In this document: positions 2,562-22,839 of the stretch, piece after piece
Layout: each line of letters opens with the position of its first letter
How positions within the stretch are numbered: position 1 is the stretch's first letter
From: a virus
Taxonomy: Duplodnaviria; Caudoviricetes
Virus record (IMG/VR): IMGVR_UViG_3300050510_000109
Coordinates: 1 to 64,000 of that record
Strand: one strand, 5' to 3'
DNA: 64,000 nt
Program-made: the position numbers and the translations under genes
Notes under the pieces: model-generated
Database searches by the model: none
What the model was told of the DNA's origin: nothing
The model's input: the letters and a program-made list of their open reading frames with translations, nothing else

Positions 2562-3050
2562 TTAGGAAGGAATTGGCAATCCGCCAGTTGCGGACTTCGA
2601 ATCACTCTTGGTAGAGCGGTAGCGCACGTTGAATTCATCAAACTCGCGGGTGGAGCTGTCCTTGCGGCGAGTACCAGCAGCCAGCTTGGTACCCTTGATC
2701 TTCACTAGCTGTCCCAGCCACGGATCGGGATCTGGAGCGCCATTCTCAATCGATGGGAGCTTGATCTCTTTACCATCAATGAATTCTGGGTGAAGCGCTT
2801 CACATAGCTGCTTAATGGAATACAGTGCGCCTGCGTAAAGCATGACTGTAGTTGGAATGGTAGAACCCTTGTACTGACCTTCCTCAACCACGAGGGTGAG
2901 TTTCCAGTATGGGTTGCCGAAGTTGTCGCCAGCCTTGGCCACAGACTTTAGTTCGATATCAGTAATCCTGCAAATATATTCGCCACTCGGAGGATACTCG
3001 AATTCTTTCGACTCTGCCTCTTTGTCCGACATATTAAGCTTAAAACTCAC
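2562..3050 (-). CDS. DUF669-like ssDNA-binding protein
   Basis: PPSGEYICRITDIELK...GNPYWKLTLVVEEGQYKG pattern; directly downstream of the Sak4-like ATPase. Confidence 0.6.
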   Translation of the reverse strand: MSFKLNMSDKEAESKEFEYPPSGEYICRITDIELKSVAKAGDNFGNPYWKLTLVVEEGQYKGSTIPTTVMLYAGALYSIKQLCEALHPEFIDGKEIKLPSIENGAPDPDPWLGQLVKIKGTKLAAGTRRKDSSTREFDEFNVRYRSTKSDSKSATGGLPIPS

Positions 3051-4175: not shown

Positions 4176-5416
4176 AGTCTGCTCTCAGTAAACATAGATT
4201 CTAGGGTATACTTGTAATCCTCCCCACGGTTTTGTCCATCACACGGAACCCGATACATACAAGAGCTGCAACTGAATCGGGAAGGTTGTGGGTAAACTCG
4301 TGGATTGCCGAGGATATCCTTGGCCTCGTTAATTAGATCGTTCCAGAAGTTTTGAATTTGTATATCAGTCTTGTATATAACGTGGCGCTGGTAGAACTTC
4401 GGTGCCATCTTACCTTGCAAGAATTCCAGGTATTCGTCGTAGCATCCCATGTTATAACCGCGAACGTCTTCGGCCATAATGGTGTTAATGAAAGTTTCGT
4501 ATTCCATGGGAGCATTTCTGTCTGTACTGAAAGCTCTTCCTTTATACTCTCGTTGTAAGCGCTTGGGCTTCTCCGGTACTGCCTTGCGCTGTTCGTGGTA
4601 AATGAAGCCGTCCACGCGCCTGCCAAGCTTGCGAATCGCTACCGGGTAGCCTGCAACCTGGTCGTCCAGTTCTAGGAAGGCAGCTTCGTCGAAATCATCT
4701 AGAATTCTGGCGGTTGTTTTCCAATCCACACAAAGTATCCTGTGGTCGGAGTCTTCGAAAATGGCATCGATTCGTCCACCAAAGGTGACAGGTAAACCAG
4801 CCCATAGTTTCCAGTAGTTGGATTCTGTTGCGCAGAACTGCCGGGCTTTGTCGGGTCCTCGTCCCTTGTTGATGAAGTACTGGTAAGTTTCCTCTTGCCA
4901 TTTGTCATGGTGAGCAATCCCATCGGAAGAAGTTTTCCATCTCACCTTGCAAGCTTCACAACCACAATTGAAGCCCAAGCTTACCTCGAAGGGAATCTCT
5001 ACAGCTAGTGGAGTCAAACCCTGATCAATCTTGGGGCTTATCTTTGTAGTATAATACTTCACCATGTCTATGCCTAGTGACAGGCTGTGTTTGTATCGCT
5101 CAATGACATCATCTTCAGGTCTACCATTAAGCTCAATGTATCTGCTGTATTGGTCCTGAACCGTGTCCTTGAAAGCATCAATTGCGTTGCGCGACTTTGT
5201 CCAGTTATCTTCTGCCCAAGTGTCCGGGTTATAGTAGGTCTCCATGGCAACGTGATAAGCCGTACCAAATTCCAGAGGTGCGGGCGTTACCGTGGGGTGA
5301 TAATTTTGCCGATAAGCCCAGTCCCAACGGCGACGACAGCCACGAAAAGCTCTGCGCTCAGAGGTGTGAATTGAATGGATCAGTCCTTTATCGATGTACT
5401 CCTGAATTTCCATCAT
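4172..5416 (-). CDS. Cas4/RecB-like PD-(D/E)XK exonuclease
   Basis: HTSERRAFRGCRR, GRIDAIF, VDWKT, QVAGY and C-terminal CSSCMYRVPC Fe-S cysteines. Confidence 0.75.
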   Translation of the reverse strand: MMEIQEYIDKGLIHSIHTSERRAFRGCRRRWDWAYRQNYHPTVTPAPLEFGTAYHVAMETYYNPDTWAEDNWTKSRNAIDAFKDTVQDQYSRYIELNGRPEDDVIERYKHSLSLGIDMVKYYTTKISPKIDQGLTPLAVEIPFEVSLGFNCGCEACKVRWKTSSDGIAHHDKWQEETYQYFINKGRGPDKARQFCATESNYWKLWAGLPVTFGGRIDAIFEDSDHRILCVDWKTTARILDDFDEAAFLELDDQVAGYPVAIRKLGRRVDGFIYHEQRKAVPEKPKRLQREYKGRAFSTDRNAPMEYETFINTIMAEDVRGYNMGCYDEYLEFLQGKMAPKFYQRHVIYKTDIQIQNFWNDLINEAKDILGNPRVYPQPSRFSCSSCMYRVPCDGQNRGEDYKYTLESMFTESRL

Positions 5417-5861: not shown

Positions 5862-6071
5862 TTATAGAAATTTGACTCTCTCCTTAGTTCCATCTTCGTA
5901 TTGGAAGAATAGAGTTGCACCTTCATTTTGAGCTTCTATAAAGTACGCATAGGCTTTGAGAGATTTGGCGACTACATCAGTCTTATTAATTCCTTCGCTC
6001 TCAGCTACTGTACTCAAGGCTATGGCAGCGCTCTTGGTAAGGTTTACTGTGATTCGCTCGCCGTTTTCCAT
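5862..6071 (-). CDS. Ribbon-helix-helix (CopG-like) DNA-binding protein
   Basis: ERITVNLT beta strand followed by two helices (INKTDVVAKSLKAY). Confidence 0.6.
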   Translation of the reverse strand: MENGERITVNLTKSAAIALSTVAESEGINKTDVVAKSLKAYAYFIEAQNEGATLFFQYEDGTKERVKFL

Positions 6072-13174: not shown

Positions 13175-13810
13175 TTAATTTAGTAGTGCAGTATCGAGGA
13201 CTGTATAGGAACCACGAGAGATCCAAACATATCCGTCGTTATTGCTGTCGTCAATCTTGAACATGGTGCTCTTGTCCACGTCGGTGGCGAAGCCAGTCAC
13301 GTGGTTGCTAGCAAAAGCTAGAATTGGATTGTTGTTCTGATCGCAAATCTGAGCAACTCTAGCAGTACCGACGAACTTATCCTTCACGCTGCGCCAAAGG
13401 AAGTTAACCAATGGAACGCCACGATCGTTGTTCTTAATCCGAAGGTTGTAGAACTGCTGTGAATTTGCCATCAGGTTGTCCATGGCACCATCTGTGATGT
13501 AAACCGAAGTGAATCCTACGGTTGAGAAAAGGTTATCTCCACAGGAGACCTTAACCACAGATGAATCTTCGATCTTCTTGCCTTCGGCATCATGCCGATC
13601 ATATTCCGTGTCGCGGGCGAAGTCAAGACTTCTACAACGCGCCTGAAATACGACTTGTCCGTCAGCACCATAATTGTAGAAGGTGCCTGGCGTTGATCCC
13701 AACACCCGCATGATGTCGTCGATTTCCTTCTCGCAAGCACTGGCCATAGTTAGCGGCAAGGCCGAGACAAGAAATGCAGCAAACAAGAGTTTCTTAATGC
13801 CCGTTTTCAT
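13175..13810 (-). CDS. Secreted/lipoprotein-like protein
   Basis: Signal peptide MKTGIKKLLFAAFLVSALPLTMASAC; AGAGG SD. Confidence 0.6.
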   Translation of the reverse strand: MKTGIKKLLFAAFLVSALPLTMASACEKEIDDIMRVLGSTPGTFYNYGADGQVVFQARCRSLDFARDTEYDRHDAEGKKIEDSSVVKVSCGDNLFSTVGFTSVYITDGAMDNLMANSQQFYNLRIKNNDRGVPLVNFLWRSVKDKFVGTARVAQICDQNNNPILAFASNHVTGFATDVDKSTMFKIDDSNNDGYVWISRGSYTVLDTALLN

Positions 13811-13846
13811 TCGTCCTCTTTAGGTTTTATTTCTTGTTTTATTGCG

Positions 13847-13918
13847 TGCCCCCGGCAGGACTCGAACCCGCGTCTATGCGTTAAAAGCGCACAGCTAAAC
13901 CATCTCAGCTACGGAGGC
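13847..13918 (-). tRNA. tRNA-Lys (UUU)
   Basis: GCCTCCG/CGGGGGC acceptor, GTGCG-CTTTTAA-CGCAT anticodon arm. Confidence 0.9.
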
Positions 13919-13928
13919 ATCTATTAAG

Positions 13929-14945
13929 TTATAGTGTCCAGAGGAACTTTGTGTCCTTCAGCAACTTGCGATTGACCGAAGTTGACTGGATGAAGATTGT
14001 GTAATCCGGATTGAAGTTTGCTTTGACTCGGACCTCCACATCCGGTGGCAAGCCAATCAAGTCGCGCGCCTCACGTCCAAGATAAATCTTACCAGTCTTG
14101 TCTTCCATCACAGCGACAAGCTTCTGTGGCTGGATGCTTACTGTGTTAGTGAGTTGGTAGTAGCCACGACCAAGAATGTAGGTCAAGCCGTGATCTTCCA
14201 CAAACTCGCGGATCTGACAATCGTCTTCCACATCAAACAGTCTGTATTGCTTCTTCAGCAGCGGCTTGACACCCATGGCAGTGACAGTTTTCTTGTTCAC
14301 TGCATCAGTGCCGGTGGAGAACAGTTGCCGTGTTCCACGAACGCCCTGTGACCTGCTGGTCATATAGGCATCAGTGGTCCGTCGGATCGTCTCGCCAACC
14401 TCAGTAATTCCAGATTCTGAATTGACATTCCAGACCATGATGTTACCTGGCCTGAAACCCCACTTCTTGGCTTCATGCATAGCTGGAATATCAGGAACGA
14501 AAACTCCTACTGTCCAGTGATCTGGCTGGTTGTTGAGCAAATTAGCCAACTCACTTGGCCGATGCCTGGACATGTTCTCTTGACCATCGGTGAAGATGTA
14601 GGTCAAGAATGAGTGATCTCCATAAATCTCAGGGGTCAATGCAAGATCCTGCTGAGATTTAATGGTTGCATCAATCAGTGCAGTCATGCCACTTGTGCGA
14701 TAAAACTGGGAAATCGACGGGAGTCGCAAAACATCCTTGTCGTATACGACGCACTTGACCGTGTCCGAAAAGACGTAGATTGTGACCCGCGTTTCTTGGT
14801 CTAGTTCTTGCGACCTTCGTGCTAGATGCTTGACTTGATCGTCAACTACCTTGATAACTTCACTAGCCCTATGACGCATCGAGTCGCTTTTGTCGATAAC
14901 AAATACAATGTGATTTACGTAATTAGGGATACTGTCATTCATCAT
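13929..14945 (-). CDS. von Willebrand factor A (vWA) domain protein
   Basis: MIDAS DKSDSM, MTALIDA, IFTDGQEN. Confidence 0.8.
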   Translation of the reverse strand: MMNDSIPNYVNHIVFVIDKSDSMRHRASEVIKVVDDQVKHLARRSQELDQETRVTIYVFSDTVKCVVYDKDVLRLPSISQFYRTSGMTALIDATIKSQQDLALTPEIYGDHSFLTYIFTDGQENMSRHRPSELANLLNNQPDHWTVGVFVPDIPAMHEAKKWGFRPGNIMVWNVNSESGITEVGETIRRTTDAYMTSRSQGVRGTRQLFSTGTDAVNKKTVTAMGVKPLLKKQYRLFDVEDDCQIREFVEDHGLTYILGRGYYQLTNTVSIQPQKLVAVMEDKTGKIYLGREARDLIGLPPDVEVRVKANFNPDYTIFIQSTSVNRKLLKDTKFLWTL

Positions 14946-16050: not shown

Positions 16051-16094
16051 CCGGTATATTGACCGCGATCAAATCAATATACCCTCAGTAACGC

Positions 16095-17711
16095 TTAGAT
16101 CTTTCCCTTACTAAACTCAGCAATGAGCTTAGGCAGGTTTGCGTCAGCTCCAACAACATCCAACATGCCCGAGTCGTTCGGGTCGGCAATGGTGAAGTTG
16201 CTCGCAGTTACACCAACCACCACAAGACGAGATGGGATTCCCATTGCCTTGCGGTATTTCTGAAGGGCAACGTGCGGGTGGACCTGACCAGACCACGTTT
16301 CGTTATCGGTGATGACGACGAACGTGTCGATTTCTATGCCTCGACTGTGCGCCCAAGTCATTGGCAACGAGCAGTCTGTAGAACCAAAGTTCTGGTCCTG
16401 TACTTTGCTCATTACCGACATGAGATCCATGTTTGCATGGATTCCCAGATCCTTGAACGTGTGGGCAAAGCCCATGATGTGATGGTAAGGCTCAGTCTTG
16501 GCGATAGCCGTAGCCATAACACCAGAGACCTGAGCTGCCGTCAAATCAAGACCCATGCCAATTGCGCCGGACATGGAACCCGAAACGTCCAACGCCAGCA
16601 GAGTGCGCTTGTTGGTTGGCTCAATGTGCTTGAACGCCAAATGAACCCCGGCATCAAGTGCACTGAGAATTTGTGGTGAGGAGACCCAATCCTTGGCGTT
16701 TCTGGCCCAAGGATTGTTGCGGTCTCGCTGTCCTTCCGTGTGAACAACCAAAGCGTTGAGGTAATTGAGAGGGTGAAGGCGCGTGCGCGCAATCATCTCC
16801 TCGTTCGTCAAGGCATTGGCGTAATCCGTGGCGAACACCAGGGAGTCAAAGGCTTTGAGCCTTGCCAACCGGGTGATGTTTCGCACCAGAGCCTGACCCT
16901 TAAGCTGTCCCGTGTAGAAAAGCTTTTGCCAAACTTCTGGGTTCTTGTGGAACTTGGTCGGCAAAGCCTCCCAAGGCAGTTTGGTGCGCTCCAGGATTTG
17001 AAGAACATCATGGACATTATCGGACTTTTGAACTTCCTCAAATGCTTGGATGACTTCTGGAAGCTGACCAATGTCTCCGTCGTACTTACCAAGAATCCAC
17101 TTGGCCACGTCGTCATAAAGATCCGTGTAGAACTTCGGACGAGACTGACGTAGTGAATCTCGGTGAGTCCAACCTTCACGTTGGCGGTACTTCACTGCCT
17201 GATAAGCAATGTCCTCCGGCGTCTTGTCCTGGTACCAAGAGGCAATTGCCTTGTTGCGCGAGCTTCCCAAGCCTGATCCAGGAGCGAGCGCCTTTAGGAA
17301 GGACTCGAACTGGAAAAGGTGAGTTGCCGTACGAACAATGCGGTTCACTTGCGAACGCGCGTAAACCTTGGCTTCCTCGTTTCCTACAGTCATAACGAAA
17401 GCCAGAACGAAAATGGCTGCATCGTTACGGTAAGAACGACCTTCGTCTGAGATTTGTGCAGCCAAATCGACAACAGCCTTTGGCTGAGTTGCCGTCAAGC
17501 TACGTAGGTTGTCCAGATTTTGCTTGGTCAAGTCCTTCTGGCCGATGTAGTACGTCCCACCCTCGGAACCAAGGATAAGGAATCGTGCCAGCCGATCCAT
17601 GGAAGAGACCTGGAACGAAAAACCTCCGGCAGAGTTAGCGATTTGCAATTGGCTCTCTGGCTCATTCTGTGGAATGTCTCTCGTCGCATGCATTCGTAGG
17701 TAGTTGCTCAC
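16095..17711 (-). CDS. rsr: Ro60 / TROVE-domain RNA-binding protein (TROVE + vWA)
   Basis: NSAGGF, RLARFLILGSEGGTYY, KYRQREGWTHRD, LPWE, LHP, LALDVSGSM, TDCSLPM, VITDNETW, MLDVVG. Confidence 0.93.
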   Translation of the reverse strand: MSNYLRMHATRDIPQNEPESQLQIANSAGGFSFQVSSMDRLARFLILGSEGGTYYIGQKDLTKQNLDNLRSLTATQPKAVVDLAAQISDEGRSYRNDAAIFVLAFVMTVGNEEAKVYARSQVNRIVRTATHLFQFESFLKALAPGSGLGSSRNKAIASWYQDKTPEDIAYQAVKYRQREGWTHRDSLRQSRPKFYTDLYDDVAKWILGKYDGDIGQLPEVIQAFEEVQKSDNVHDVLQILERTKLPWEALPTKFHKNPEVWQKLFYTGQLKGQALVRNITRLARLKAFDSLVFATDYANALTNEEMIARTRLHPLNYLNALVVHTEGQRDRNNPWARNAKDWVSSPQILSALDAGVHLAFKHIEPTNKRTLLALDVSGSMSGAIGMGLDLTAAQVSGVMATAIAKTEPYHHIMGFAHTFKDLGIHANMDLMSVMSKVQDQNFGSTDCSLPMTWAHSRGIEIDTFVVITDNETWSGQVHPHVALQKYRKAMGIPSRLVVVGVTASNFTIADPNDSGMLDVVGADANLPKLIAEFSKGKI

Positions 17712-17722
17712 TTTTTCCTCTT

Positions 17723-17743
17723 TCAGTCACTTTTCAGTAACAA
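17723..17743 (-). promoter_or_regulatory. Putative Ro-binding hairpin abutting the Ro60 SD sequence
   Basis: Minus strand UUGUUAC-UGAAAA-GUGACUGA reproduces the bulged helix of the Y-like RNAs, 2 nt 5' of the GAGG SD. Confidence 0.55.
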
Positions 17744-17748
17744 GGATG

Positions 17749-17833
17749 TGGTAGTTTGATTATAGCCACCAGATTCGGCAAACCCCCATGCCTTACTGGG
17801 CGCTGACGACTTACACTATCCGACAAACTACCA
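17749..17833 (-). ncRNA. Structured element upstream of the Ro60 leader
   Basis: 10-bp TGGTAGTTTG/CAAACTACCA closing stem; no ORF. Confidence 0.3.
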
Positions 17834-17843
17834 AAACGGGTCG

Positions 17844-17916
17844 CTGCCAGGGCAGGAATCGAACCTGCTGCTTCCATACCGTCCTGGACTGCGCAGTCAA
17901 GCAGGACATCCTGGCA
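17844..17916 (-). ncRNA. D-armless tRNA-like RNA A
   Basis: TGCCAGG/CCTGGCA acceptor, GCAGG-TTCGATT-CCTGC T arm, single central GTCCTG/CAGGAC stem. Confidence 0.55.
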
Positions 17917-17936
17917 ATGTTCTTTTAATTTTCGTG

Positions 17937-18020
17937 TGGGAAGAACAGGATTCGAACCTGCGCAAGGGCAACCACATTTCTGTGGATTCGGTACCATCTC
18001 CTCATTATGCCTATCTTCCC
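17937..18020 (-). ncRNA. Atypical tRNA-like RNA B
   Basis: GGGAAGA/TCTTCCC acceptor, GCAGG-TTCGAAT-CCTGT T arm; no canonical D or anticodon arm; CCACA-GAAA-TGTGG hairpin. Confidence 0.5.
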
Positions 18021-18126
18021 TTTGGGTGGGCTTTTTTACCGACTCCAACGGCTAGGTGCCCACTTGAACCTAGTGTTTCCCATTCTTTACTGGGCAAGAT
18101 AGGTGCGACCTATCCTAAACGCATTG

Positions 18127-18203
18127 AGGCTAGTAGGGACTCGAACCCAATTGTTCCTCCAGTATTGCATGACTCTCGCGAAAGTCAACTGGATAACCTA
18201 GCC
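18127..18203 (-). ncRNA. D-armless tRNA-like RNA C
   Basis: GGCTAG/CTAGCC acceptor, GGG-TTCGAGT-CCC T arm, central TCCAGT/ACTGGA plus TGACTTT/AGAGTCA stems. Confidence 0.5.
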
Positions 18204-18330
18204 ATGGTGAGGAATCCTTATTCCCTCATAGGGCACCATGGTTGCACATGGGCCTCGGGAAATGGCCGATCAAACCATCTATATAGCAGATAGGCGCCTA
18301 GCTGCAATTTATATATTTCTGGATTCCCCG

Positions 18331-18403
18331 TGCGCTATGTAGGACTCGAACCCACAACTTCTGCTTGGAAGGCAGACGTGTTACCATTAAACACTAATAA
18401 CGC
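18331..18403 (-). tRNA. tRNA-Gly (UCC)
   Basis: GCGTTAT/ATAGCGC acceptor, TCTGC-CTTCCAA-GCAGA anticodon arm. Confidence 0.9.
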
Positions 18404-18406
18404 TAA

Positions 18407-18479
18407 GTGAGGATGAAGGATTCGAACCTCCTCGCCGGGCCTAATCGGCTTTAACCGTGATGCCTAGGACATCTCCTCA
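18407..18479 (-). ncRNA. D-armless tRNA-like RNA D
   Basis: TGAGGA/TCCTCA acceptor, GGAGG-TTCGAAT-CCTTC T arm, central CCTA/TAGG stem. Confidence 0.45.
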
Positions 18480-18512
18480 ACCCTTACCATCCCAACCTGC
18501 CAGCCAGGAAGT

Positions 18513-19685: not shown

Positions 19686-19826
19686 GATGCCGAACAAGTT
19701 GGCTACTATCGAAAGTTTTTGTGCTATCCGTTACACCACTGGCCCATGAGCGGGCCAGCCAGGAGTCGAACCTGGACCTTCTAATTAGCAGTTAGATGAT
19801 AATCGATAATAATTCAGTCCGACATC
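19686..19826 (-). ncRNA. yrlA: Y RNA 1, YrlA type
   Basis: GAUGUCG-GACUGA...CUUGUU-CGGCAUC stem; internal T arm CCAGGTTCGACTCCTGG, closed acceptor CTGGCCC/GGGCCAG, D arm. Confidence 0.85.
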
Positions 19827-19827
19827 G

Positions 19828-19904
19828 TGGGATTAGCAGGATTCGAACCTGCACTATGGACTTGGCATGTCCACGCCAGCGTCTACCAATTGCGCCACAA
19901 TCCC
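19828..19904 (-). tRNA. Atypical tRNA (possibly Gly-GCC; anticodon arm ambiguous)
   Basis: GGGATTG/TAATCCC acceptor, Leu-like D arm, canonical T arm; TGGAC-ATGCCAA-GTCCA competes with TGGCG/TGCCA. Confidence 0.5.
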
Positions 19905-19918
19905 ATTTGTATTGCACG

Positions 19919-20018
19919 TAGGAACGACAAGAATCGAACTTGTACCTTCTGGCTTAAGGGGCCAGTGCTCTAAATCCTCGGTTTCGGATATCACTCCACC
20001 TTGTTAAGCTACGTTCCC
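19919..20018 (-). tRNA. tRNA-Lys (CUU) with a 35-nt expanded D-loop
   Basis: GGGAACG/CGTTCCT acceptor, CTGGC-CCCTTAA-GCCAG anticodon arm, ACAAG-TTCGATT-CTTGT T arm. Confidence 0.7.
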
Positions 20019-20155
20019 ATGTTTTTGTGTACCGTATTGGGCCACGTACGGTACCAGACGTGGATACCATCCCCCGGAAGGGGCATCGCCCGTTTTGGTT
20101 TCCCTCATAGAAATCCGCCCAACGGCGAAGCAAGACAAACCCCAAGAGAGAACCG

Positions 20156-20228
20156 CTGGCCCAACAGGACTCGAACCTGTAACCCGTTGATTAACAATCA
20201 ACTGCGCTGCCAATTGCGCCATGAGCCA
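20156..20228 (-). tRNA. tRNA-Asn (GUU)
   Basis: TGGCTCA/TGGGCCA acceptor, GTTGA-TTGTTAA-TCAAC anticodon arm. Confidence 0.9.
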
Positions 20229-20234
20229 TTAATA

Positions 20235-20284
20235 GGGGATCAGCGTTCCCTTTTACGTTGTGGCTAGCCGTTACGCTGATCCCC
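20235..20284. other. 12-bp inverted repeat (terminator or RNA-processing stem)
   Basis: GGGGATCAGCGT/ACGCTGATCCCC. Confidence 0.45.
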
Positions 20285-20307
20285 GATCCTTCCGCGACCG
20301 CAGAAGT

Positions 20308-20694
20308 TTAACCTACGGTATAAGAACCATAGAAATCTATAAACCTTAGACCTTCATGATTCTCACAATCAGCCAGGTCATCTTCAGCCCAGTGATCGTA
20401 AAAGTCATTTTCTTGCCAGTAGTAAAGGTCTGTTTTCCATTGCTTGATTAAGCTCTGACGCTCGTGGCGCCAGTTCATTCTTTCACGACCATCTTCAAAG
20501 TAGAAAGCATATTTCTGACTACAGCACCAGCATTTGTGCTTAGCAAATAATGGCTTCCAAGTCCATTCGTAGAGTTCGTAAAGTCCAGTTTTCATATCGA
20601 ACGCTCTGCGAATGTGTCCAACCATGCGAAACCTACGGTTCAATGGGTCTTTCTCTTGAACCCACCATGGTCGCGTTTTGTCTGTATGAGACAT
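20308..20694 (-). CDS. Hypothetical protein (MSHTDKTRPWW...)
   Basis: AGGAGG SD; sole ORF between tRNA/ncRNA genes. Confidence 0.6.
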   Translation of the reverse strand: MSHTDKTRPWWVQEKDPLNRRFRMVGHIRRAFDMKTGLYELYEWTWKPLFAKHKCWCCSQKYAFYFEDGRERMNWRHERQSLIKQWKTDLYYWQENDFYDHWAEDDLADCENHEGLRFIDFYGSYTVG

Positions 20695-20851
20695 GATAAC
20701 CTCCTGTGCCGGTTAGGTACCGGCTAGACTAGGTTTCTCATGTCTTTCTCCTTTCTACTTTAAGTTTGGCGGGCAGGACTACGACCTACTAAAGCAATTT
20801 ATCCGGAACATCCTAGGTTCGGTCTCGGGTGCTACCCAACCTGCCTCGCTG

Positions 20852-20923
20852 TACCCCCACTAGGATTCGAACCTAGAACCTGATAGTTAAGAGCTACCAG
20901 CTCTACCCTTGAGCTATGGAGGC
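20852..20923 (-). tRNA. tRNA-Lys (CUU)
   Basis: GCCTCCA/TGGGGGT acceptor, GGTAG-CTCTTAA-CTATC anticodon arm. Confidence 0.9.
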
Positions 20924-21173
20924 TTGACCCTAGTATGTAGTATTTTGAAGCTGACGAGTAACTACATACTAGGGGGATCGTACTGTACCACAGACTTCTG
21001 ACTTAGCATTGGAGAGGGTTACTTTATCTAGAATTTTTCGCCCCCCACGCTTTCTCCCGCACTCCGTTAACACTCGACGTTGGAGAGTATAGGGTTGAGC
21101 GTTAGTTATACTTTGGTCATTCCGTCCATCCTGGTCGAGACAATTCACGTCTATGACAAAGTAAAAACTACCG

Positions 21174-21247
21174 TCTGGATAGCAGGATTCGAACCTGCAA
21201 TCGCTAGCTCCCAAAGCTAGTGCCCTACCAAGTTAGGCCATATCCAG
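21174..21247 (-). tRNA. tRNA-Pro (UGG)
   Basis: CTGGATA/TATCCAG acceptor, CTAGC-TTTGGGA-GCTAG anticodon arm. Confidence 0.9.
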
Positions 21248-21251
21248 ATTA

Positions 21252-21334
21252 GATGCTGAACAAGTATTTGCATCGGAGGGATATCTTCATTCATTACAAG
21301 TGAATTGATAACCGATACAATTCAGTCCAGCATC
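21252..21334 (-). ncRNA. Y-like RNA 2 (no tRNA module)
   Basis: GAUGCUG-GACUGAA-UUGUAUCGGUUAUC...CCGAUGCAA-AUA-CUUGUU-CAGCAUC. Confidence 0.8.
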
Positions 21335-21337
21335 GGG

Positions 21338-21405
21338 GTACCTAACAAGTCGCAAATATCGGGTTATTTTGGCTGGAGGATAACCGATATTCTTCAGTCA
21401 GGCAC
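21338..21405 (-). ncRNA. Y-like RNA 3 (minimal, 68 nt)
   Basis: GUGCCU-GACUGAA-GAAUAUCGGUUAUC...CCGAUAUU...CUUGUU-AGGUAC. Confidence 0.8.
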
Positions 21406-21408
21406 TCG

Positions 21409-21480
21409 CCCGAACGACAGGAGTCGAACCTGCATCTTCCGGTTTTGGAGACCGGCGCTTTTCCATTAAGCTACGTTCGA
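21409..21480 (-). tRNA. tRNA-Trp (CCA)
   Basis: TCGAACG/CGTTCGG acceptor, CCGGT-CTCCAAA-ACCGG anticodon arm. Confidence 0.9.
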
Positions 21481-21483
21481 AGG

Positions 21484-21560
21484 CTCCGCAACCTCACATT
21501 TGTGGAAACAACAAACCAGGCGGAGGTAAAGTGACCTTTGGCGCTTGTGAGGTTGCGGAG
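21484..21560 (-). ncRNA. Long-stem structured RNA
   Basis: Perfect 15-bp CTCCGCAACCTCACA/TGTGAGGTTGCGGAG stem enclosing 47 nt, between tRNA-Trp and Y-like RNA 4. Confidence 0.45.
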
Positions 21561-21567
21561 GTTAAAC

Positions 21568-21675
21568 AGCCAAACAAGTTACGACAATTGCTAGATTAAA
21601 CATTAGCTGCGAGCCATGCTTCATCCACTAGTAATTAAACTTTTGCAGTGATAAGCGATCGTCTTCAGTCTGACT
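21568..21675 (-). ncRNA. Y-like RNA 4
   Basis: AGUCA-GACUGAA-GACGAUCGCUUAUC...CUUGUU-UGGCU; overlaps the stop codon of the upstream ORF. Confidence 0.7.
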
Positions 21676-22075
21676 TGCGCTTTGGTCTTTCTCGTTTAAT
21701 TCTGTCTTGCGGGTTGTTCATTGAATCAGTGATCAGTTTTTCTATGTGTTCTGGGAGCCTATCGGGTGGTCCTTGTGTGCGTTCAAGCTCAATTCGTCTT
21801 GCCTCTTCGGTTATTACCTTCATAGCACAAATCTTAGCCTTGTCCAAGGACATCATGCGCAGTGTATATTCTAGTGTCGTCTTGCATATCACTATCGCTT
21901 CCATTGCGCCTGCTGCTGGTCTGTACCAGACTAACTCAGTGCCTACTTCAGAGCTAAAAGCTGAACTTGCTTGAGTATCCATAAGCAGTCGTTGCTGTTG
22001 ATCTGCACTTCGCAATTCAACATCGATCGTTATTGATACAAACCAATTTTTTCTTATATCGTCCCACTTTGTCAA
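21665..22075 (-). CDS. Hypothetical protein embedded in the Y RNA array
   Basis: TTG start after AAGGAG SD; the longer ORF-track version runs through Y RNA 5. Confidence 0.55.
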   Translation of the reverse strand: MTKWDDIRKNWFVSITIDVELRSADQQQRLLMDTQASSAFSSEVGTELVWYRPAAGAMEAIVICKTTLEYTLRMMSLDKAKICAMKVITEEARRIELERTQGPPDRLPEHIEKLITDSMNNPQDRIKRERPKRKSD

Positions 22076-22092
22076 TCTTGCTCTCCTTTTGA

Positions 22093-22231
22093 TACTGCCG
22101 AACAAGTGTAAGCAATCGGTATTTTTGGCGCTCTCCCACTGAGCTACATCCCGAAAATCAGGATGACAGGACTCGAACCTGCGACCTCCCACTCCGAATG
22201 TGATAACCAATTAGCATTCAGTCCGGCAGTA
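22093..22231 (-). ncRNA. yrlA: Y RNA 5, YrlA type
   Basis: UACUGCCG-GACUGAA...GGUUAUC; T arm GCAGGTTCGAGTCCTGT, closed acceptor CATCCTG/CGGGATG, D arm TAGCTCAGTGGGAGAGC; CUUGUU-CGGCAGUA. Confidence 0.85.
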
Positions 22232-22238
22232 CGTATGG

Positions 22239-22316
22239 GTATTGAACAAGTGGCTAGATTCGGCCTGTGGTCGGCATCAAATAGTTGTCGATAACCAAAT
22301 CTATTCAGTCCAATAC
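22239..22316 (-). ncRNA. Y-like RNA 6
   Basis: GUAUUG-GACUGAA-UAGAUUUGGUUAUC...CCGAAUCUA...CUUGUU-CAAUAC. Confidence 0.8.
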
Positions 22317-22328
22317 TTGGAGCTTTTA

Positions 22329-22438
22329 GTGTTGAACAAGCTATCGTAATCGTCCATTGCCCTACCATTAGGCGATATCCGGCGTGCGGATAAAAAGATT
22401 CGAACTTTTAAGATAAACAATTACTATCAGTCCAACAC
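22329..22438 (-). ncRNA. yrlA: Y RNA 7, YrlA type
   Basis: GUGUUG-GACUGA...UUUAUC; T arm AAAAGTTCGAATCTTTT, closed acceptor TATCCG/CGGATA, D arm TCGCCTAATGGTAGGGC; CUUGUU-CAACAC. Confidence 0.8.
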
Positions 22439-22447
22439 CAAGTTGGG

Positions 22448-22549
22448 TGTACCTAACAAGGTGGAGAATTCGGTCTTACTTAATAGACGCTCAATATATC
22501 GAGCTTCCTTCTATCCATCCTGATAACCAAATTCAATCAGTCAGGCACA
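22448..22549 (-). ncRNA. Y-like RNA 8
   Basis: UGUGCCU-GACUGAU-UGAAUUUGGUUAUC...ACCGAAUUC...CUUGUU-AGGUACA. Confidence 0.8.
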
Positions 22550-22557
22550 ACGTTTGG

Positions 22558-22679
22558 ATGTCTAACAAGTTATTAAGATTTCGGGTGGCCTACCTCGTGG
22601 TGGTTAGCTTCGAGGCTAGATTTCGCATGTCTAACGGCCGAGTCTGGTGCGGTAACCGAATTCTAATTCAGTCAGACAT
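22558..22679 (-). ncRNA. Y-like RNA 9
   Basis: AUGUCU-GACUGAA-UUAGAAUUCGGUUACC...CCGAAAUCU...CUUGUU-AGACAU. Confidence 0.75.
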
Positions 22680-22684
22680 TACCA

Positions 22685-22759
22685 GGTGATTGTTGGGGGT
22701 CGAACCCAAACCTCTAGATTCACAGTCTAGTGTGCACGAGCCGGTACACTACAACCACC
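22685..22759 (-). tRNA. tRNA-His (GUG)
   Basis: G-1:C73 pair, GTGGTTG/CAATCAC acceptor, CTAGA-CTGTGAA-TCTAG anticodon arm. Confidence 0.88.
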
Positions 22760-22762
22760 ATG

Positions 22763-22839
22763 AGTTGCAAACAAGTTGACAGGTATCGGTATAGTTCCAT
22801 ACCAATTATAGATAACCGAAACCAATTCAGTCTGCAACT
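22763..22839 (-). ncRNA. Y-like RNA 10
   Basis: AGUUGCA-GACUGAA-UUGGUUUCGGUUAUC...ACCGAUACC...CUUGUU-UGCAACU. Confidence 0.8.

What the first reader, a model, noticed from the sequence alone, without database searches (positions are those of the whole stretch)
17712..17744. Ro-binding helix as a hairpin at the Ro60 ribosome-binding site: likely translational autoregulation
Seen in sequence: the minus strand just 5' of the Ro60 start reads CCUUGUUAC-UGAAAA-GUGACUGA-AA-GAGG-AAAAA-GUG. The same two strands as in the Y-like RNAs occur in reversed order (UUGUU first, GACUGA second). They rebuild the identical U-A, U-G, bulged U, G-C, U-A, U-G helix as a hairpin ending 2 nt before the GAGG SD. Inference: free Ro60 binds its own leader and blocks translation, while abundant Y RNAs relieve this. 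The hairpin also independently supports this helix as the Ro site.
Basis: partly seen in the sequence, partly recalled or inferred. Interest (0 to 1): 0.85.

Follow-up and report, generated by a model that had tools for sequence, protein, structure and literature searches.

The report
Y-RNA-mimic hairpin before phage Ro60
Just ahead of the ribosome-binding site of this phage's Ro60 gene is a small hairpin that copies, with its strands swapped, the stem by which Ro60 is thought to grip the phage's ten Y RNAs; similar copies sit before Ro60 genes in many other phages and bacteria, so Ro60 probably senses and limits its own synthesis, though this has not been tested.

Summary
On the minus strand, 17743-17723 reads UUGUUACU-GAAA-AGUGAC[U]GA. 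It ends 2 nt before the SD GAGG (17720-17717), which lies 5 nt before the GUG start (17711) of a TROVE+vWA Ro60 gene. The two strands are exactly the invariant CUUGUU and GAC[U]GA(A) of the window's ten Y-like RNAs, in reversed order.

It is not chance. Across 191 Ro60 loci (101 clusters at 70% identity), a strict reversed-helix hairpin occurs in 15/191 Ro60 leaders against 11/1107 control RBS leaders (p=3e-7). A credible variant occurs within 30 nt of the start in 30/101 clusters, both phage and bacterial.

The leader copy mostly matches each genome's own Y RNAs. The matches include bulge U or C and the triplets UUG, AUG, ACG and CCG.

The best reading is an autogenous translational operator that mimics the Y-RNA Ro site, with Y RNAs as competitors. 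There are three caveats:
- Binding and repression are untested.
- RNAfold does not predict the two post-bulge pairs. In this window it predicts UCCUU paired to the SD instead.
- The motif is absent from about two thirds of Ro60 lineages.

I found no publication. This scan has noted the same idea in at least 7 other genomes.

The parts
17723..17743 (-). Leader hairpin UUGUUACU-GAAA-AGUGAC[U]GA. It is the Y-RNA Ro helix in reversed strand order, with bulged U at 17725 and a GAAA tetraloop at 17735-17732.
   Evidence: Sequence. Fold (inner 6 bp P~1). The same strands occur in the ten Y RNAs.
17717..17720 (-). Shine-Dalgarno GAGG. It lies 2 nt after the hairpin and 5 nt before the start codon.
   Evidence: Predicted to pair with UCCUU (17746-17742) in the free RNA, with unpaired probability <=0.03.
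17742..17746 (-). UCCUU. It overlaps the CUU of the Y-type CUUGUU strand and is the alternative pairing partner of the SD region GAGGA (17720-17716).
   Evidence: pair probabilities 0.96-0.98. This pairing is not conserved in relatives.
16095..17711 (-). Ro60/Rsr orthologue, 538 aa, GUG start.
   Evidence: Pfam TROVE and vWA_Ro60. The N-terminus aligns with relatives L001 and L050. TROVE hit in own genome.
19687..22838 (-). Array of ten Y-like RNAs (about 68-139 nt each). Each has a variable terminal stem, GAC[U]GA paired to CUUGUU, and GGUUAUC. These are the presumed primary Ro60 ligands and competitors.
   Evidence: No Rfam family reaches threshold.
17745..17786 (-). Upstream Y-like half element GGGGUUUGC[C]GAAUCUGGUGG-CUAUAAUCAAA-CUACCAC. 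It contains TATAAT (17766-17761). It may be a promoter -10 box or a degenerate Y module. Its status is uncertain.
   Evidence: Sequence. Fold. The promoter scan did not call it.

Best explanation
The hairpin is a cis-acting Ro60 operator in the 5' leader of the Ro60 mRNA. It presents the Ro-contacted strand G-N-C-[bulged Y]-G-A-A and its U-U-G partner, the same module that forms the lower stem of the phage's Y RNAs. Here the module is closed by a loop on the terminal-stem side and is placed 2 nt from the SD.

Inferred mechanism: when Ro60 exceeds the available Y RNA, it binds this weaker, mimic site. Its 60-kDa ring then occludes the SD and start region, the hairpin ending 11 nt before the start codon. 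This lowers its own translation. The ten Y RNAs compete for Ro60 and so relieve the block.

Shown here: the sequence identity to the Y strands, the position at the RBS, the recurrence, and the match to each genome's Y RNAs across lineages. Inferred: Ro60 binding, repression, and competition.
For: (1) The strands are exactly shared with ten of ten Y RNAs, including the flanking C and A.

(2) Position-specific enrichment. The a-priori descriptor is found in 15/191 Ro60 leaders (8/101 clusters) against 11/1107 control RBS leaders, p=3e-7. The generalised descriptor is found in 68/191 against 117/1107, p=2e-16. A credible hairpin ends a median of 12 nt before the start in 30/101 clusters: 20/59 phage or metagenome and 10/42 bacterial.

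(3) With no constraint on the base opposite the post-bulge G, it is U in 22/36 clusters against 31/271 controls, p=1.7e-10. The final base is A in 20/36 against 59/271.

(4) The leader mostly matches the Y RNAs of the same genome:
- window: UUG and a U bulge in both
- L050, the closest relative at 65% identity: AUG and a U bulge in both
- Nocardia L181: ACG in both
- L090: CCG in both
- L012/L082 and L161: AUG in both
- L080, L197, L203 and L035: UUG in both
Over all 31 clusters scored automatically, the first base agrees in 21 and the bulge base in 25.

(5) A covariance model built from 8 diverse seeds gave 30 hits in 1.57 Mb. Fifteen are Ro60 leaders, 13 of them non-seed.

(6) The motif equals the published Ro-contacted sequence: GGUCCGA in vertebrates and GNCGAA in YrlA. 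Ro60 contacts mainly that strand (PMC4201824).

(7) The same reversed-order hairpin occurs inside tRNA-shaped Y-like RNAs of bacteria. A loop-closed version is therefore a natural form of the module.
Against: - There are no binding or expression data.
- RNAfold does not predict the two post-bulge pairs (P<0.1 in 18 of 21 lineages). It does not predict them in the Y RNAs either.
- The free leader of this window is predicted to have its SD already paired to UCCUU. Ro60 capture of the Ro helix could therefore open the SD rather than close it.
- About two thirds of Ro60 clusters lack the hairpin. These include the L010/L045 phages, the mycobacterial prophage group and Verrucomicrobia.
- In many phages the outermost pair is A.A or A.G, not U-A.
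- The generalised descriptor was designed after seeing the relatives.
- The match between leader and Y RNAs is not universal. In BE-type phages the leader reads AUG..GG while one Y RNA reads UUG..GA. In the group C phages the pair beside the bulge is G-C in the leader and A-U in the Y RNAs.
- The sampled lineages are phylogenetically related, so the independent events behind the leader/Y agreement are fewer than the counts suggest.
Confidence: 0.55

Rival explanations
1. The element is a two-state switch with the opposite sign. The free leader hides its SD through UCCUU:GAGGA. Ro60 binding pulls U18 and U19 into the Ro helix with G37 and A38, which frees the SD. Ro60, or Ro60 released from Y RNA, would then activate its own translation.
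For:: the SD-sequestered conformer is -10.6 kcal/mol, against -1.7 to -3.1 for the Ro-helix conformers. SD unpaired probability is <=0.03. The two pairings compete for the same two U residues.
Against: The anti-SD pairing is not conserved. SD accessibility ranges from 0.01 to 0.92 across 21 hairpin-bearing lineages. The CUU is already explained as part of the invariant Y-type CUUGUU strand. Positive autoregulation of an abundant RNA-binding protein would be unusual.
Confidence: 0.15
2. The element is Ro60-independent. It could be a generic 5' stabilising or SD-modulating hairpin. It could also be a processing site for the same RNase that trims the Y RNAs. In that case the resemblance to Y stems would reflect a shared nuclease signal, not Ro60 binding.
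For: The hairpin sits at or near the probable 5' end of the mRNA. The flanking region is full of processed tRNA-like and Y RNAs. Thermodynamics predicts only a plain hairpin.
Against: The conserved unpaired features are exactly the published Ro-contacted motif: the bulged pyrimidine, the G and A after it, and the U opposite. They are enriched relative to other RBS-proximal hairpins. They mostly match each genome's own Y RNAs.
Confidence: 0.15
3. The element is an evolutionary relic without function. It would be a remnant of a junction between two tandem Y RNA genes, where the 3' strand of one is followed by the 5' strand of the next. Alternatively it is part of a decayed eleventh Y RNA that happens to abut Ro60.
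For: Y-Y junctions in the array give the same strand order, UUGUU..GACUGA. A Y-like half element lies just upstream at 17786-17745.
Against: Junctions do not form hairpins, whereas the leader copy has complementary AC(U)/(A)GU and a GNRA loop. The arrangement recurs at the same distance from the start in 30/101 clusters spanning phages, Chloroflexota, Armatimonadota, Myxococcota and Actinomycetota. The stems differ widely and vary in a compensatory way.
Confidence: 0.1

Closest known systems
Ro60-binding bulged helix of Y RNAs (vertebrate GGUC[C]GA/UUGACC; bacterial and phage YrlA motif GNCGAAN0-1G; Chen et al. 2014, PMC4201824)
   Same: The core is the same: a Watson-Crick pair, then a bulged pyrimidine, then G.U and A-U, then an A. 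It is identical to the helix of the window's own ten Y RNAs.
   Different: The strands are in reversed order and joined by a loop on the terminal-stem side. The element lies inside an mRNA leader, not at the paired ends of a small RNA. It has no upper stem, no GGUUAUC motif and no tRNA-like domain.
Autogenous translational operators that mimic the protein's main RNA ligand: E. coli thrS operator (tRNA-Thr anticodon-arm mimic), ribosomal protein leaders (S8, L1, S15, L20), the MS2 coat-protein hairpin at the replicase RBS, and T4 RegA and gp32 (from general knowledge)
   Same: A copy of the protein's natural RNA site sits on or beside the SD of its own gene. The natural ligand is expected to act as a competitor.
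   Different: The protein family is different, and no such operator is reported for Ro60 or Rsr in the literature I could search. Binding and repression are not demonstrated here.
tRNA-topology Y-like RNAs found here in bacterial Ro60 loci (for example the L209, L187 and L164 hits)
   Same: They carry the Ro helix as a loop-closed hairpin in the same reversed order, UUGCCC-loop-GGGC[C]G.
   Different: There the hairpin is part of a stable non-coding RNA and is followed by GGUUAUC and a T arm. Here it is followed by an SD and a coding region.

Membership tests
Autogenous translational operator by ligand mimicry | The operator resembles the protein's primary RNA ligand | tested here: met
   The strands are identical to those of ten of ten Y RNAs of the window. 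The triplet and bulge mostly match each genome's Y RNAs in other lineages.
Autogenous translational operator by ligand mimicry | The operator overlaps or abuts the ribosome-binding site of the protein's own gene | tested here: met
   It ends 2 nt before GAGG and 11 nt before GUG. The median distance is 12 nt across 44 unique hairpins.
Autogenous translational operator by ligand mimicry | The protein binds the operator specifically | not testable with these tools
   Needs EMSA, filter binding or CLIP.
Autogenous translational operator by ligand mimicry | Binding lowers translation and the natural ligand relieves it | not testable with these tools
   Needs reporter fusions and toeprinting. RNAfold leaves the sign open.
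Y RNA (Ro60-associated small RNA) | A bulged helix carrying the Ro-contacted GNC[Y]GA strand | tested here: met
   GAC[U]GA is opposite UUG(UU). The motif is as in PMC4201824.
Y RNA (Ro60-associated small RNA) | The helix is formed by the 5' and 3' ends of a discrete small RNA with an upper stem and loop (GGUUAUC, often a tRNA-like domain) | tested here: not met
   The strand order is reversed, the loop is 4 nt, and the element is followed directly by an SD and an ORF. It is not a Y RNA.
Any curated Rfam family | A match at or above the gathering score | tested here: not met
   Only tRNAs reach threshold in the window. Nothing meaningful covers 17712-17760 at E<=10.

The most novel reading that the evidence does not exclude
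This is a widespread and previously undescribed cis-regulatory RNA of the Ro60/Rsr family. It is a strand-swapped Y-RNA mimic at the RBS, through which Ro60 measures the ratio of protein to Y RNA. Y RNAs would act as anti-repressor sponges. The element is conserved from actinophages to Chloroflexota, Armatimonadota, Myxococcota and Actinomycetota, and it evolves together with each genome's Y RNAs.
Probability: 0.45. Interest if true: 0.8.

Novelty: new member of a known kind. Interest (0 to 1): 0.72.

Why it matters
- It would be the first regulatory element described for Ro60/Rsr synthesis, and it would link Y-RNA abundance directly to Ro60 output.
- It gives a roughly 21-nt minimal candidate Ro60 ligand, defined by evolution independently of the Y RNAs. 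This helps define what bacterial and phage Ro60 recognises, a question Chen et al. 2014 left open.
- It is directly testable in cultured Streptomyces phages that carry the same hairpin (Moab gp106, Jay2Jay gp130).
- A phage with ten Y RNAs and one Ro60 gene is a natural system for studying the stoichiometry of Ro60 and Y RNA.

Tried and rejected
- Rfam scans, both gathering and E<=10, gave nothing at the site.
- The first covariance model, R1, was built from near-identical GCCC-type hairpins. It was too sequence-specific and recovered mainly close relatives. I replaced it with R2, built from diverse seeds. R2 still did not recover the window's own hairpin at E<=10.
- MAFFT misaligned hairpins of different geometry. 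I therefore counted pairs with my own scripts. Because the descriptors require pairing, I did not use those counts as evidence of covariation. I used control leaders and an unconstrained-position test instead.
- I considered an eleventh Y RNA ending in the leader's CUUGUU, with its 5' strand at 17786. I rejected it as a bona fide Y RNA because the terminal stem has two mismatches in five positions.
- I considered a uORF starting at the AUG of the AUGCCC-type hairpins. I rejected it because the frame and stop are not conserved between groups.
- An intrinsic terminator is rejected: there is no U-run, and the scan did not call one.
- The promoter scan did not call the TATAAT at 17766-17761 because there is no -35 match.
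- The Boccitto & Wolin 2019 review and Green et al. 1998 are not held in the library.

Full report
**What is there.** The window is most of a 72-kb phage record. It is distantly related to Streptomyces Stanwilliamsviridae phages whose homologous gene is annotated 'Ro-like RNA binding protein'. ORF 16095-17711(-) is a Ro60/Rsr orthologue (TROVE 3.7e-29, vWA_Ro60 7.4e-61). It lies within a cluster of 13 tRNAs and several tRNA-like elements.

The hairpin is 17743-17723. The SD GAGG is 17720-17717 and the start codon is 17711-17709.

**The reference helix.** Ten minus-strand elements between 19687 and 22838 share four features:
- a variable but complementary terminal stem;
- an invariant GACUGA, followed by A in eight copies and U in two;
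- a GGUUAUC motif;
- an invariant CUUGUU at the 3' side.

Their GAC[U]GA/UUGUU pairing is the phage's version of the vertebrate GGUC[C]GA/UUGACC helix. It also corresponds to the bacterial YrlA motif GNCGAA, the strand that Ro60 mainly contacts (PMC4201824). The leader contains CCUUGUU and GACUGAA in the opposite order, joined by AC(U)-GAAA-(A)GU.

**Is it chance?** The linear pattern TTGTT-N4-30-GACTGA is over-represented in the window, with 8 matches against 1.4 expected. Five of these are junctions between tandem Y genes and do not fold back. The strict hairpin form occurs about once per 11 kb in 739 kb of related DNA.

Folding energy alone is not remarkable (z=-1.76 and -0.88). The case therefore rests on comparison with other genomes.

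**Comparative evidence.** I collected Ro60 loci from viral contigs, metagenomes and bacterial genomes. The 191 loci with an assigned start fall into 101 clusters at 70% protein identity.

A hairpin of the form (U/A)(U/C)(G/A)-stem-loop-stem-(C/U)[bulged C/U]G(A/G), followed by an A-rich spacer and the SD, lies just upstream of Ro60 in many of them. Examples:

| Source | Leader hairpin |
|---|---|
| L050 (closest relative, 65% identity) | AUGUCCC-cgaaa-GGGA[A]C[U]GA |
| L001 | ACAUUCAU..GUGAGU[C]GA |
| Moab-type phages | AUGCCCA-aaa-UGGGC[C]GA-AAGGA |
| Jay2Jay/BE-type phages | AUGCCCU-aca-AGGGC[C]GG |
| L012 | AUGCUCGU..ACGAGC[C]GA |
| L014 | UUGACCC-gaau-GGGUC[U]GA |
| L080 | UUGUUCUCUU-gaa-AGGAGAGC[C]GC (SD inside the stem) |
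| Chloroflexota L187, L191 | UUGCCCC..GGGGC[C]G(G/A)-AAGGAG |
| Armatimonadota L190, L194, L197, L203 | same UUG..C[C]GA form |
| Nocardia L181 | ACGCCCC..GGGGC[C]GA |
| Myxococcota L164, L171 | (C/U)(C/U)GCCC..GGGC[C]GG |

The named cultured phages Moab (gp106) and Jay2Jay (gp130) carry it.

**Statistics against a matched control.** The control set is RBS-like leaders of all other ORFs of at least 100 codons in the same loci.
- The a-priori descriptor, derived only from this window and the vertebrate helix, hits 15/191 Ro60 leaders (8/101 clusters) against 11/1107 controls. Fisher p=3e-7 and cluster-level binomial p=8e-6.
- The generalised descriptor with a stem of at least 4 hits 68/191 against 117/1107, p=2e-16. 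It was designed after seeing the data.
- A credible hairpin ends within 30 nt of the start, median 12 nt, in 30/101 clusters: 20/59 phage or metagenome and 10/42 bacterial. There are 44 unique sequences.
- A test that does not presuppose the post-bulge pair shows that the base opposite the post-bulge G is U in 22/36 clusters against 31/271 control hairpins, p=1.7e-10. The last base is A in 20/36 against 59/271.
- A covariance model built from eight diverse seeds returned 30 hits in 1.57 Mb of searched strand. Fifteen are Ro60 leaders, 13 of them not seeds.

**The leader copy mostly matches the genome's own Y RNAs.**
- Window: UUG and a U bulge in both the Y RNAs and the leader.
- L050: AUG and a U bulge in both.
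- L181: ACG in both. L090: CCG in both.
- L012/L082 and L161: AUG in both.
- L080, L197, L203 and L035: UUG in both.

Over all 31 clusters scored automatically, the first base agrees in 21 and the bulge base in 25. Most disagreements come from the weakest leader hits, with stems of 3-4 bp, long loops, or positions far from the start.

There are real exceptions. In BE-type phages the leader reads AUG..GG while one Y RNA reads UUG..GA. In the group C phages the pair beside the bulge is G-C in the leader and A-U in the Y RNAs.

The lineages are related, so the independent events are fewer than the raw counts. The window/L050 difference and the ACG and CCG cases are separate events.

**Mechanism.** The most economical reading is an autogenous operator. 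Free Ro60 binds the mimic next to the SD and hinders 30S binding, and Y RNAs compete for Ro60. This follows the logic of thrS and the ribosomal-protein and phage coat-protein operators (general knowledge).

Three things temper it.
1. Nothing here shows binding.
2. RNAfold predicts only the inner hairpin. The two post-bulge pairs have P<0.1 in 18 of 21 lineages. RNAfold also fails to predict them in the Y RNAs themselves. The bulged helix is therefore either protein-induced or not needed, which agrees with the remark in PMC4201824 that Ro60 mainly reads one strand.
3. In this window, UCCUU upstream of the hairpin is predicted to pair with GAGGA (P~0.97, SD unpaired <=0.03). This competes with the Ro helix for U18 and U19. 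Ro60 binding could then in principle expose the SD. This anti-SD pairing is not conserved, since SD accessibility ranges from 0.01 to 0.92. I therefore rank the activating switch as a rival, not the main model.

**Distribution limits.** About two thirds of clusters lack the hairpin.
- Some have a Y RNA directly abutting the leader (L019, L022).
- Some have a different hairpin. Verrucomicrobia have GUGCCG..CGGCGC. L015 has the SD in a loop.
- Some have nothing obvious (L010/L045 and the mycobacterial prophage group).

**Related observation.** Several non-leader hits of the covariance model lie inside bacterial tRNA-shaped RNAs. In these the two ends form a 7-bp acceptor stem, and the anticodon arm is replaced by a Y module with the Ro helix as the same reversed-order hairpin. 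This shows that the loop-closed form of the module occurs naturally in presumed Ro60 ligands.

**Novelty.** Four full-text searches found no report of Ro60/Rsr autoregulation or of a leader element. Chen et al. 2014 do not mention one. Within this scan, at least seven notes on other genomes reached the same idea. I saw them only after my own comparative analysis, and they agree with it. I class the element as a new member of a known kind of regulator, the mimicry operators. It is of clear interest to the Ro60 field and is readily testable.

Noticed in passing
window 17745-17786 (-): GGGGUUUGC[C]GAAUCUGGUGG-CUAUAAUCAAA-CUACCAC resembles the 5' strand plus upper stem of the Y RNAs (compare GAC[U]GAAUUGGUUUCGGUUAUC). 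Its TATAAT (17766-17761) could be a -10 box or a degenerate GGUUAUC. The leader's CUUGUU could in principle pair with this upstream GC[C]GA instead of the downstream GAC[U]GA.
   Followed up: partly
window 16085-16092 (-): The 8-mer GUUACUGA of the leader hairpin recurs directly after the Ro60 stop codon. It is followed by a 10-bp hairpin GGUAUAUUGA..UCAAUAUACC with no U-run.
   Followed up: no
L209 about 2233-2375; L187 about 2615-2760; L164 about 5080-5230; also L203 2142, L048 1863, L089 1194: These are bacterial tRNA-topology RNAs: an acceptor stem from the two ends, the D arm 5' and the T arm 3'. The anticodon arm is replaced by a Y module with the Ro helix as a reversed-order hairpin (UUGCCC-loop-GGGC[C]G), followed by GGUUAUC. 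This is a circular permutation of the published YrlA layout.
   Followed up: partly
L143, L149, L153, L158, L175, L178-L180, L185, L198 (about 60 nt upstream of Ro60): Verrucomicrobial rsr leaders share a different conserved hairpin, GUGCCG-agaguugg-CGGCGC. It lies between the Y-RNA 3' strand CAACUUGUCCGCAG and the SD.
   Followed up: no
L015, L016 about 2905-3000; L086 about 5905-6000: A Y RNA with a nearly vertebrate-type stem (GGCUGGU..UUUGACCAGCC-UUUUU) lies directly upstream of Ro60. It is followed by a hairpin ACGAC-UUGGGAGG-GUCGU that holds the SD in its loop.
   Followed up: no
L211 1248-1267 (Streptomyces phage Jay2Jay): The Ro60 leader hairpin AUGCCUU-aaga-AAGGGC[C]GG overlaps the stop codon of the upstream gene 129. 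No separate SD is evident, and the purine run of the 3' strand may serve as one.
   Followed up: no
window 13175-14945 (-): Downstream of Ro60 on the same strand, beyond two tRNA genes, lie a second vWA-domain protein (13929-14945) and a DUF5052 protein (13175-13810), with a tRNA-Lys between them.
   Followed up: no
window 17844-18496 (-): Several tRNA-like elements with good T arms but aberrant D and anticodon regions lie between tRNA-Gly and the Ro60 leader. One, at 17937-18020, just reaches the Rfam tRNA threshold (29.1 bits).
   Followed up: no
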